Assembly: GCA_001938485.1 (NCBI GenBank)
Contig: MQRK01229935.1
Location: 12,615 to 76,614, forward strand
Direction of reading: 5' to 3'
Length of the DNA: 64,000 nucleotides
Source of the DNA: Girardia tigrina
Taxonomy: Eukaryota
Every line of letters begins with the position of its first letter. Positions within the stretch are counted from its first letter, which is position 1. This document shows, piece by piece, positions 45-3,000 of the stretch. Position numbers: made by a program.

Positions 45-3000
45 TAATATACAAAATATAACATATAGCACAAATTTATGAAAGCTGCAATTTTATTTAA
101 ATTTAATTTGCTTTTTAAACATGAATCGTTTAGTAAATTTTTCTAAGCAATATTAATTAGACAATAAAAATATTTATTAATTTGGATCTTCTTGACAGTT
201 TGAGCGACTTATTAGTAAATGAACCTTCACGGAAATTAAAGAATAGTTTTATGTGGCTGTTAAGTACGGAAGGAAGTGGTATTAATGGCAGATGTAATAT
301 AAAAATAAAGTAAAAGTATTTTTCTCTATAAAAATCTATTATTAATTTTGAATATTAGAATATTTAATAATTATTAATAAATTAATAAAAAAATTAAATA
401 ATTAAAGAAATATTTTGAAATAAATAATTACATTCAATAATAAATTTTCAAAAAATATTAAGAAACAATTTTTCGATTATTTTACGTTTAATACCGATAA
501 AGAAAAATATCGTTTACATTTCTTTTTTAATCGCTAATTTTTTGATTTATTTATTAATTTTTTAGTAACACATTTTTCTGACACAAATAAATTTAAATGA
601 AAAAATTGTCTATAAAAAAGGAAAATTTGGAAAGTAGTTTTAAATATGAAATCCTTAATTTTATTAATCATGGTTTGTGCAATATTGTTTCCTATTTGTG
701 AGGTAGATTCTTTCTACCGAAAACCAAAACCATTCGGGAAAAGATTCGTAAAAGAAACAGAAGAAGAATTAGAAAAAAGAAACAACGTTCAACATTTTCG
801 AAGATGGCATGGTCAATTTGAAGATAAATAATACTAAATGAAAATTGATTCAATAAATTTTTTATGCATTATATTTCTATTTTATTAAAATAATTAAAAT
901 TTGTTAAATTGAGAATTTTTTACCAATGTTTTTAAATATAATGATAATATTTTATTAAGACAACAAGAACTACATTATAAAATTAATTTATGATTAGATA
1001 TATCGACGGATTTACCATTATCTTAAGGTCACTAATAATGAGCTTTTTTAAGACTCATAAATTGGATATTGGTGATTACGCATTCTTCTGTATAATAAAA
1101 GTCGAAAACTCTCAACAAATTGATTGAAAATGCCGTTTGAACATTGATTTTATGATCAGGAGATCTTATTTTTTTTAAGAACTTTTTATTAAGAAAATAC
1201 TTTTTGAATTACATTACGGAAACGTATTTATTTTTTTAATTATACCTAAATTCTTTCTAATTTTATTGTTGAAATATTTTATGAAATATTTATTAACTTC
1301 CGTTTTATTATTTTTATTACGTATTTAATATTTATATTTATCAATATGTCTAGAATATGGAAAAAGGTAATTGTATAAAGAAATTGTGTAAAAAGAGGTA
1401 AAATGGTAACATTATGGAAATGCGCGGAGCATTCGCCCTTAACAGCTTAATTAGAGACTTTTTTACTTTGTTCTTTTTGTTCTGAATTATTTTGAGTTTA
1501 TAGTATAAATTTGATCAGCAACAGAAGATACCCGAGTTATTCAATCAGAAGTGATAACGCCTCTTTAAGTACAAAACATCCAGATTCGATATTTAATGAA
1601 GGTTTTCAACCTTTCGTATCTCATTAGAAACATACTTGTTCTTTGATAGATAAAGGGTTAGAGGAAATTCATCTTGAGTCATAAAGTTTAAAATCAATTG
1701 ATTAAAATAATGGTGTAGAAATTCCAAAATGGCAGTTGTGCAATAAATATGTATTTCTCTCATTTATCTTTAAAGAAATTTTAACTTAAATCGAAGCAGA
1801 ACTTTTGATAACCCAAATTTAATGTGATGTTGCAAGTGAAGATACAACAGAAATACATAACGTTTCATCAACAATATAATTTAATTATGTCGGTAATGCC
1901 GAATTAATGACTCACGTTTCTAAATTTTGCTCTGGGAAATCTCCTCCAGCCAACCCATGTTTGAAGAGACCTGACTTATAAGTTGCGTTTCTTTCATTAA
2001 TTCGGTGATCCATTTGTATATTTTTGATCTCAAAAGACAGTTATCTTTATAAGCATGAGCAATATAAGGAAGTATTTTTCCATTTTTCTTTTTAAGTATC
2101 AAAAGAATTTCATTTAAATTTCGGTGTTTTACAGTGATCATTTCTCTGCAGAATTCAAATTTAAAATAACAACAAACATATATACCCACTATATTAAACG
2201 TAATATATGTGTTGGAACATGTAAAGCTATAGTTAAGACTGGCGTAATCAATACCACAAAATCAATGAGTTAATATTTCTAGTTCCTATCCAGTCCCAGA
2301 CATTTTTAATGAACCGAATATTTAAAACCTTTATTGTATTGAGTTGTTTCAAAGCGCCTTGCCTTTAGATAACGCTCTAATTTAATTATTTAGACATGTT
2401 AGAAGTATAACTAATCAAATATATAGCAATAAATATATTGAAACTTTAAACAAAAATAATTTTGTTAGTAAAATTCACTATATATGCGATATAGGATTAA
2501 ATTAATAAAAAAATCATAATCGAAAATTTATATTGTTTATAATAAATGAAATCGCCCTGAAACGGCAGTAGTTATATATATATATATATATATATTTACC
2601 GTTAAAGGTTTTTTAATAAATTTATTATTTAACATTCTTTTTTAAGGATCGATTTGTGGTTGCAAGTTAATCTGGTTTATAAATTTGATTGTCACGTGCG
2701 TAAAACCTCGTACATCGGAGGGACAAATCGTCATCTCAAAACCCGGATTAGTGAGCATTCATAATCAAGTCAATCGAGTAAGGTTCTTGATCATTACATT
2801 GTAAAAATAGAATTTCTTCTATTTTAAAGGATGAGTTTTCTGTTTGACAGAAGGGTTTTGATTCACATTATGAGTGGCAGTTTTGTGAATTTAATATGAA
2901 CAAAGTAAGGCCGTTTCAAATCTTAAAATCTCTAATTAAAATTTTAATAACATTTTGCCATTATTATCCAATAATATCCAAAATTACATAAATAAATAAA

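What the first reader, a model, noticed from the sequence alone, without database searches (positions are those of the whole stretch)
646..831. Compact prohormone gene predicting an unfamiliar PKPF-amide peptide
Seen: signal peptide, FYRKPKPF-G-KR, acidic spacer, KR, NNVQHF-RR-WHGQFEDK, with TATA and AATAAA bracketing the ORF tightly. Established: G plus KR is the convertase/PAM amidation signature. Inference: the product is FYRKPKPF-amide. I do not recognise it as NPY/F (RxRF-amide), FMRF-amide-like or luqin, so it may be an unannotated family. 61-aa single-exon genes are often missed by annotation.
Basis: partly seen in the sequence, partly recalled or inferred. Interest (0 to 1): 0.65.

Follow-up and report, generated by a model that had tools for sequence, protein, structure and literature searches.

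The report
Candidate small amidated-peptide prohormone gene
A 61-codon reading frame in very AT-rich, probably planarian DNA has the full layout of a small neuropeptide precursor, but no transcript, relative or published match could be found, so it remains a plausible, unproven candidate gene.

Summary
ORF 646-831 (+) encodes 61 aa: a signal-like N-terminus, FYRKPKPF followed by G-KR, an acidic spacer, KR, then NNVQHF-RR-WHGQFEDK. TATAAAA lies at 611-617 and AATAAA at 852-857.

Chance alone gives this layout rarely but not negligibly: 10 of 3201 simulated windows. That would mean tens of chance copies in a large genome.

Mild support comes from three things. The ORF is a GC island (rank 11 of 117 ORFs). 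It is the only one of 119 ORFs with both a TATA and a poly(A) signal nearby. Its nearest language-model clusters are small prohormones, all under 0.9.

Codon usage has no power here. No homologue was found in any protein search, and no printed match in ten literature searches.

A new point: the peptide's head (xYRKP-K-PF) resembles the head of arthropod SIFamide and holds the same position in the precursor. However, the family's conserved tail and its Cys pair are absent.

Verdict: probably (about 0.5) a real, unannotated prohormone gene. SIFamide membership is not supported. Expression and conservation could not be tested.

The parts
611..617 (+). TATAAAA, candidate TATA box 35 nt before the ATG
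   Evidence: TATAAA occurs about 2 times per strand-kb in this window, and 3 of 119 ORFs have one 25-60 nt upstream. It would leave a leader of only a few bases.
646..831 (+). 61-codon ORF with stop: candidate prepro-peptide
   Evidence: Single copy within the window.
646..711 (+). Residues 1-22, signal-peptide-like: MK, a 13-residue uncharged hydrophobic run, then P-I-C-E-V-D-S with V at -3 and S at -1
   Evidence: Read from the sequence, plus a crude rule. No dedicated signal-peptide predictor was available. The -3/-1 rule is recalled knowledge.
712..735 (+). Residues 23-30, FYRKPKPF: predicted mature peptide, amidated after processing (calculated [M+H]+ 1081.63)
   Evidence: The internal R-K is followed by Pro. 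The same R-K-P couplet in SIFamide is reported not to be cleaved (passage).
736..744 (+). G-K-R: amidation donor Gly plus dibasic cleavage site
   Evidence: The pathway is as described in the passages.
745..774 (+). FVKETEEELE: acidic spacer (calculated pI 4.2)
775..780 (+). K-R dibasic site
781..828 (+). C-terminal part NNVQHF-RR-WHGQFEDK: one 16-residue peptide, or two if R-R is cut. No Cys and no Gly-dibasic.
852..857 (+). AATAAA, candidate poly(A) signal 21 nt after the stop
   Evidence: AATAAA occurs 4 times per strand-kb, and 11 of 119 ORFs have one within 50 nt after their stop. Only this ORF has both signals.

Best explanation
ORF 646-831 is a small, intron-less gene for a secreted peptide precursor in an AT-rich flatworm genome, probably a triclad planarian.

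Inferred mechanism:
1. The first 22 residues act as a signal peptide and are removed.
2. A prohormone convertase cuts after G-K-R, after K-R and possibly after R-R.
3. A carboxypeptidase trims the basic residues.
4. The amidating enzymes convert the exposed Gly, giving FYRKPKPF-amide.

The internal R-K is spared because Pro follows it. The other products would be an acidic spacer and one or two C-terminal peptides. The amidated octapeptide would be the signalling product, most likely acting on a G-protein-coupled receptor.

Shown here: the ORF, its motifs and their rarity. Inferred: expression, every processing step and any signalling role.
For: - All motifs are present in the right order.
- The full layout arises by chance in only 10 of 3201 simulated windows. 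It is the only 1 of 119 ORFs in the real window with a signal-like start plus G-dibasic.
- The ORF is a GC island: 0.30 against 0.14 upstream and 0.20 downstream. Its contrast of 0.133 ranks 11 of 117 ORFs, close to the two clear coding pieces of the window (cadherin 0.161, ANT exon 0.154).
- It is the only 1 of 119 ORFs with both TATAAA upstream and AATAAA just downstream.
- It does not lie in repeated DNA of the window.
- The protein language-model search gave a recognition value of 2461, above the 2300 mark that 91 in 100 known-family proteins and 9 in 100 shuffled ones reach. Most of the nearest named clusters are small prohormones (PDH, GnRH, NPY, AKH, PrRP, DH31, spexin), at scores of 0.82-0.85, which are leads only.
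- The peptide's head matches the head of arthropod SIFamide at 6 of 7 positions with one extra Lys, in the same place in the precursor. For a random ORF the probability of that match at a fixed register is about 2e-8, before allowing for the many known peptides it could have matched.
- Planarians have the processing enzymes. Authors of a 2026 preprint state that many short, uncharacterised transcripts with signal peptides and dibasic sites exist beyond the 52 known genes (passages).
Against: - No transcript, peptide or cross-species evidence could be obtained.
- No homologue was found. The exact look-up was negative. There was no word-sharing candidate of 33-107 aa. HMMER against 1.84 billion representatives gave 1 hit at E=4.5e-4, and that hit is a repeat-like translation judged spurious.
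- Codon-usage scoring is no better than for a third of null ORFs (-0.019 bits per codon; null -0.109 +/- 0.147; cadherin pieces 0.130 +/- 0.120). Synonymous-codon choice does not separate coding from null in this genome.
- A chance rate of 0.3-1% per window implies tens to over a hundred look-alikes in a genome of several hundred Mb. That is of the same order as the number of true prohormone genes.
- The TATA box 35 nt before the ATG would leave almost no 5' leader.
- All feature definitions in my chance tests were chosen after seeing the ORF.
Confidence: 0.5

Rival explanations
1. Chance ORF. In DNA with 26% G+C, hydrophobic runs (Phe, Leu, Ile codons) and Lys/Arg pairs (AAA, AGA) are common. 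One 61-codon ORF with this layout may simply be one of the many expected across a large genome, with no transcript and no product.
For: - 74 stop-to-stop ORFs of at least 70 codons lie in the window, and this one has 71.
- Simulations give the layout in 10 of 3201 windows. Signal-like ORFs are about 3 times more frequent in the real window than in simulations.
- Codon tests show no coding signal.
- No homologue was found anywhere and no Pfam family matched.
- TATAAA and AATAAA are very frequent here, at 2 and 4 per strand-kb.
Against: Several independent features coincide: the layout, the GC island, both flanking signals (1 of 119 ORFs), the prohormone-like neighbours in the atlas, and a 6-of-7 match to the head of a known neuropeptide at the same precursor position.
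Confidence: 0.33
2. Part of something else. One version: the stretch is the first exon, coding only the signal peptide, of a larger secreted-protein gene, using the AG|GTAGAT donor-like site at 701-708 right after codon 19. Another version: it encodes a secreted non-neuronal peptide (gland or defence peptide) whose G-KR is not used for amidation.
For: A donor-like site lies exactly at the end of the hydrophobic region. Introns right after signal-peptide exons are common (recalled knowledge). The cationic, Pro-rich octapeptide could also suit a non-neuronal secreted peptide.
Against: If this stretch were an intron, the frame would stay open by accident for 42 more codons while carrying four ordered processing motifs. 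No downstream exon candidate was identified. No family matched the neighbouring ORFs.
Confidence: 0.1
3. A divergent flatworm member of the SIFamide/FFamide family, shortened to the head of the peptide.
For: - xYRKP-K-PF resembles XYRKPPF.
- The peptide sits directly after the signal peptide and is followed by G plus a dibasic site.
- The R-K-P couplet is uncleaved in SIFamide.
- The precursor is short: 61 aa against the 69-77 aa reported.
- SIFamide/FFamide signalling is reported from annelids, molluscs and nemerteans.
- A planarian read had a SIFamide receptor as its best hit, at E=9e-10.
Against: - The tail shared by the arthropod and oyster peptides (N-x-S-I/L-F, then F-amide or amide) is absent.
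- The oyster peptide printed shares only that tail with arthropods, not the head. The likeness here is therefore to the part not seen in the one spiralian sequence I could read.
- The precursor-related peptide with two Cys six residues apart is absent. The ORF has no Cys after residue 18.
Confidence: 0.12

Closest known systems
Arthropod SIFamide precursor (XYRKPPFNGSIFamide, as printed in PMC3749230 and PMC4696782)
   Same: - Head of the peptide: x-Y-R-K-P ... P-F.
- The peptide lies directly after the signal peptide.
- G plus a dibasic site follows it.
- The internal R-K is protected by Pro.
- The precursor is very short, with one copy of the peptide and one C-terminal associated part.
   Different: - One extra Lys in the head.
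- The peptide stops at the Phe, so the conserved NGSIF-amide tail is missing.
- The associated peptide lacks the two Cys six residues apart.
- The source appears to be a flatworm, not an arthropod.
Spiralian FFamide / SIF-like peptides (oyster GMNPNMNSLFFamide, as printed in PMC4200219)
   Same: An amidated C-terminal Phe. It is the spiralian counterpart of SIFamide according to the passages.
   Different: No shared head and no N-S-L-F-F tail in the ORF. I could read only one spiralian sequence.
Known planarian prohormone genes (52 known; Collins et al. 2010, PMC2953531; 2026 preprint 10.64898/2026.10.10.758126)
   Same: The same general kind: small secreted precursors cut at dibasic sites and amidated by PC2, CPE and PHM/PAL (passages).
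   Different: No identical or word-sharing protein in the collections searched. None of the motifs KPF, PKP, FYR or NNVQ appears in the main text of PMC2953531. Its supplementary sequence lists could not be seen.
NPF/NPY, FMRFamide-like and luqin peptides
   Same: An amidated C-terminal Phe.
   Different: No Arg before the Phe (the peptide ends K-P-F). No match to the Pfam NPY family or to any other hormone family at E up to 10.

Membership tests
Convertase- and PAM-processed neuropeptide prohormone (generic kind) | N-terminal signal peptide | tested here: met
   M-K, then 13 uncharged hydrophobic residues, then a c-region with V at -3 and S at -1. It passes my crude rule, which 8 of 119 ORFs pass. 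No dedicated predictor was available.
Convertase- and PAM-processed neuropeptide prohormone (generic kind) | Peptide followed by Gly plus a dibasic site, with further dibasic sites | tested here: met
   G-K-R at residues 31-33, K-R at 44-45 and R-R at 52-53.
Convertase- and PAM-processed neuropeptide prohormone (generic kind) | Transcribed, and expressed in peptidergic cells | not testable with these tools
Convertase- and PAM-processed neuropeptide prohormone (generic kind) | Conservation of the mature peptide in related species | tested here: inconclusive
   No relative was found in the protein collections. No flatworm genome collection was available, and short precursors are hard to detect.
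SIFamide / FFamide | Head XYRKPPF (arthropods) | tested here: inconclusive
   F-YRKP-K-PF gives 6 of 7 identities with one inserted Lys. The oyster peptide lacks this head.
SIFamide / FFamide | Conserved tail: NGSIF-amide in arthropods, NSLFF-amide in oyster | tested here: not met
   The peptide ends ...K-P-F before G-K-R, so there is no such tail.
SIFamide / FFamide | Peptide directly after the signal peptide, single copy, followed by a precursor-related peptide | tested here: met
   The predicted cleavage after S22 puts F23 first. The architecture is as described in the passages.
SIFamide / FFamide | Precursor-related peptide with two Cys separated by six residues | tested here: not met
   There is no Cys after residue 18. 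The feature is as described.
SIFamide / FFamide | Cognate SIFamide/NPFF-type receptor in the same genome | not testable with these tools
   Only one 64-kb window is held. One old planarian read with a weak best hit to a SIFamide receptor is listed in PMC3022928.
NPF/NPY and RFamide-type peptides (FMRFamide-like, luqin) | C-terminal Arg-Phe-amide (RxRF-amide for NPF) | tested here: not met
   The C-terminus is K-P-F. No Pfam hormone family matched at E up to 10.
Already deposited planarian prohormones | Identity or near-identity to a deposited protein | tested here: not met
   The exact look-up was negative. No candidate of 33-107 aa shared three 5-residue words. HMMER gave 1 spurious hit. The supplementary lists of PMC2953531 were not seen.

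The most novel reading that the evidence does not exclude
The ORF encodes the flatworm counterpart of SIFamide, reduced to its YRKP...PF head and amidated there. That would mean the head motif, so far printed only for arthropods in what I read, predates the split of arthropods and spiralians. It would also mean a family thought to be defined by its tail can survive as its head alone. It would offer a candidate ligand for the orphan SIFamide/NPFF-type receptors of flatworms.
Probability: 0.12. Interest if true: 0.65.

Novelty: new member of a known kind. Interest (0 to 1): 0.38.

Why it matters
Planarian workers state that more neuropeptide genes probably exist beyond the 52 known, among short unannotated transcripts. 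A verified new amidated peptide would add one ligand to a system with over 550 receptors, most of them without a known ligand (passage).

If the SIFamide-like head reflects descent, it would bear on how the SIFamide/FFamide/NPFF lineage evolved in spiralians. If the ORF is chance, the case is a useful calibration. In DNA this AT-rich, a complete-looking prohormone layout turns up by chance in roughly 0.3-1% of 64-kb windows. Motif-based prohormone mining therefore needs expression or conservation support.

Tried and rejected
- **Homology.** The exact look-up, the word-based search and HMMER against 1.84 billion representatives found nothing. The single hit, P0121, is a repeat-like translation that matches only S-F-Y-x-K-P, and I rejected it.
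- **Pfam.** No family at E up to 0.01. Only a meaningless NLS hit at E up to 10.
- **Rfam and tRNA scans of the window.** Nothing found.
- **Codon-usage likelihood and synonymous-codon ratios.** These have no discriminating power in this genome.
- **Paralogues or repeat membership within the window.** None.
- **Literature.** 'pkpfamide' gave 0 papers, 'kpkpf' 0, and 'pfamide'+'flatworm' 0. 'pkpf' gave 78 papers, of which the 20 listed were unrelated by title. 'pkpf'+'neuropeptide' gave 1, an unrelated worm antimicrobial peptide. Six further 5-6-letter motifs gave 14 papers, all unrelated by title.
- **Second atlas call,** restricted to unnamed clusters: added nothing.
- **Source organism.** The cadherin ORF gave only an unnamed 72% relative. 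The ANT exon pointed to Schmidtea mediterranea (83% and 76% identity), with a rotifer at 78%. This suggests a flatworm but does not prove it.
- **Spliced models.** The ANT exon was searched on its own.
- **Virus-like stretch named in the operators' note.** Not located. No viral or retro-element Pfam domain was found in the 5+70+78 ORFs scanned. 141 of the 219 ORFs of 48-69 codons were not scanned.
- **Human origin.** The window is not taken for human: 26% G+C, with best named hits to a planarian.

Full report
**1. Observation**

On the + strand an ATG at 646 opens a 61-codon frame that ends with TAA at 829-831. The translation is the one quoted:
- residues 1-22, M-K followed by 13 uncharged hydrophobic residues, then P-I-C-E-V-D-S
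- residues 23-30, FYRKPKPF
- G-K-R
- the acidic FVKETEEELE
- K-R
- NNVQHF
- R-R
- WHGQFEDK

TATAAAA lies at 611-617 and AATAAA at 852-857. The nearest N run starts at 6180. None was filled.

**2. Source and setting**

The window has 26% G+C. Two clear coding pieces lie elsewhere in it.
- A 907-aa cadherin ORF at 49627-52353 (-) has six Pfam cadherin stretches.
- An ADP/ATP-translocase exon-like piece lies at 38664-38945 (+) (Mito_carr, E=9e-16).

The translocase piece, searched on its own, gave 1173 proteins at E<=0.001 among 1208 candidates. The best named ones were two Schmidtea mediterranea proteins (83% and 76% identity) and a rotifer protein (78%). The cadherin's best relative is an unnamed protein at 72% identity.

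I read the source as a flatworm, probably a triclad planarian, without proof. It is not taken for human.

Around the ORF there is nothing else recognisable. It is single copy within the window. Its flanks are extremely AT-rich, at 0.14 G+C upstream and 0.20 downstream, against 0.30 in the ORF.

**3. Chance**

Length alone means little. There are 74 stop-to-stop ORFs of at least 70 codons and 119 ATG-ORFs of at least 40 aa.

Of those 119, 8 pass a crude signal-peptide rule, and only this one also has Gly followed by two basic residues.

I ran 3201 simulated windows with an order-3 Markov model of the window, the cadherin excluded. They held 261,514 ORFs.
- 9,501 ORFs were signal-like.
- 168 windows held one with G-dibasic anywhere.
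- 78 windows held one with G-dibasic at residue 20-41 and no earlier cleavable dibasic site.
- 10 windows held one with all of that plus at least two later dibasic sites (a looser first run of 400 windows is).

The real window has about three times more signal-like ORFs than the simulations, so I take 0.3-1% per window as the chance rate. For a genome of several hundred Mb that means tens to more than a hundred chance look-alikes. That is the same order as the number of true prohormone genes. All criteria were set after seeing the ORF.

**4. Further internal evidence**

In favour:
- The GC contrast with the flanks is 0.133, rank 11 of 117 ORFs (null mean 0.035, sd 0.068). This is close to the cadherin (0.161) and the translocase exon (0.154).
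- It is the only 1 of 119 ORFs with both TATAAA 25-60 nt upstream (3 of 119 have that) and AATAAA within 50 nt downstream (11 of 119).
- The atlas recognition value is 2461, above the 2300 mark that 91 in 100 known-family proteins and 9 in 100 shuffled ones reach. Most of the nearest named clusters are small prohormones, at scores of 0.82-0.85, which are leads only.

Neutral or against:
- Codon-usage likelihood is -0.019 bits per codon. That lies between the null ORFs (-0.109 +/- 0.147; 33% of them score as high) and left-out cadherin pieces (0.130 +/- 0.120).
- Synonymous-codon choice does not differ between coding and null ORFs in this genome (0.24 against 0.27-0.28).
- The TATA box is so near the ATG that the leader would be only a few bases long.
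- A donor-like AG|GTAGAT lies right after codon 19.

**5. Relatives and literature**

The exact sequence is not in the 15-billion-protein collection. No protein of 33-107 aa shares three 5-residue words with it. HMMER against 1.84 billion representatives gave one hit at E=4.5e-4, a repeat-like translation that I reject. Pfam gave nothing.

In the paper library:
- 'pkpfamide', 'kpkpf' and 'pfamide'+'flatworm' gave 0 papers.
- 'pkpf' gave 78 papers, of which the 20 listed were unrelated by title.
- 'pkpf'+'neuropeptide' gave 1, which was unrelated.
- Six more motifs gave 14 unrelated papers.

The main text of Collins et al. 2010 (PMC2953531; outline and find mode only) holds none of KPF, PKP, FYR or NNVQ. 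Its sequence lists are in supplements that were closed, so a match there cannot be excluded.

A 2026 preprint (passages only) counts 52 known planarian neuropeptide genes. It describes PC2, CPE and PHM/PAL as the processing enzymes. It also notes many short uncharacterised transcripts with signal peptides and dibasic sites in peptidergic neurons.

**6. Closest known look-alike**

Searching the library with the window's own motif YRKP plus 'neuropeptide' gave 57 papers. Most of the 25 listed are arthropod neuropeptide papers.

Passages print SIFamide as V- or G-YRKPPFNGSIFamide, with consensus XYRKPPFNGSIFamide. They describe its precursor as follows:
- the peptide lies directly after the signal peptide
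- the internal R-K is not cleaved
- a precursor-related peptide follows, with two Cys six residues apart
- the length is 69-77 aa

The ORF's peptide shares x-YRKP-(K)-PF, the position after the signal peptide, the following G-dibasic site and the small precursor size. For a random ORF the probability of that head at a fixed register is about 2e-8. Even after allowing generously for the thousands of known peptides it could have matched, this is unlikely to be pure chance.

The family's conserved part is the tail, and the tail is missing. The one spiralian member I could read, oyster GMNPNMNSLFFamide, shares only the tail with arthropods. The Cys pair is missing too. SIFamide/FFamide signalling is reported from annelids, molluscs and nemerteans. 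I saw no flatworm peptide of this family in any passage.

Membership is therefore not supported. The resemblance may be convergence on a protease-resistant basic, Pro-rich head.

**7. Mechanism and verdict**

The best-supported reading is a real, unannotated, single-exon prohormone gene. Its product is cut and amidated to FYRKPKPF-amide, plus a spacer and one or two C-terminal peptides (confidence about 0.5). Every step after the ORF itself is inferred.

The rivals are:
- a chance ORF, about 0.33
- part of another gene, or a non-neuronal secreted peptide, about 0.1

As a kind of thing it is well known. As a peptide it has no match in what I could search. Interest is moderate-low until expression or conservation is shown.

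Noticed in passing
window 49627-52353 (-): Uninterrupted 907-aa protocadherin-like ORF with six Pfam cadherin stretches and a C-terminal hydrophobic segment. The best relative is an unnamed 907-aa protein at 72% identity.
   Followed up: partly
window 38664-39011 (+): ADP/ATP-translocase-like piece. Only residues about 7-114 of a 308-aa Schmidtea mediterranea translocase find a match in the window. It is either a partial copy, or the rest is absent or masked.
   Followed up: partly
window 53432-54373 (-): Two adjoining ORFs (103 and 210 aa) with weak matches to a Tc3-type transposase HTH (E=0.062) and a DDE_3 endonuclease (E=0.079). This looks like a decayed Tc1/mariner-type DNA transposon.
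   Followed up: partly
window 40939-41175 (-) and 2654-2764 (+): A GIY-YIG-like stretch (E=9.5e-4, below Pfam's cut-off) at about 41 kb. A similar-looking motif seen by eye 2 kb downstream of the finding had no Pfam hit. These may be remnants of a mobile element.
   Followed up: partly
window 1-44, 20646-20697, 35965-36024, 49627-49665: (AT)n microsatellites recur through the window.
   Followed up: no
window 6180-6229, 18766-18803, 20698-21322, 26168-26217, 39720-39924, 59794-59843: Six N runs: three of exactly 50 bases, and others of 38, 205 and 625 bases. They were left as they are. ORFs listed across 20609-21689 run through one of them and are not real.
   Followed up: no
whole window: No viral or retro-element Pfam domain was found in the 153 ORFs scanned. 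141 of the 219 ORFs of 48-69 codons were not scanned.
   Followed up: partly
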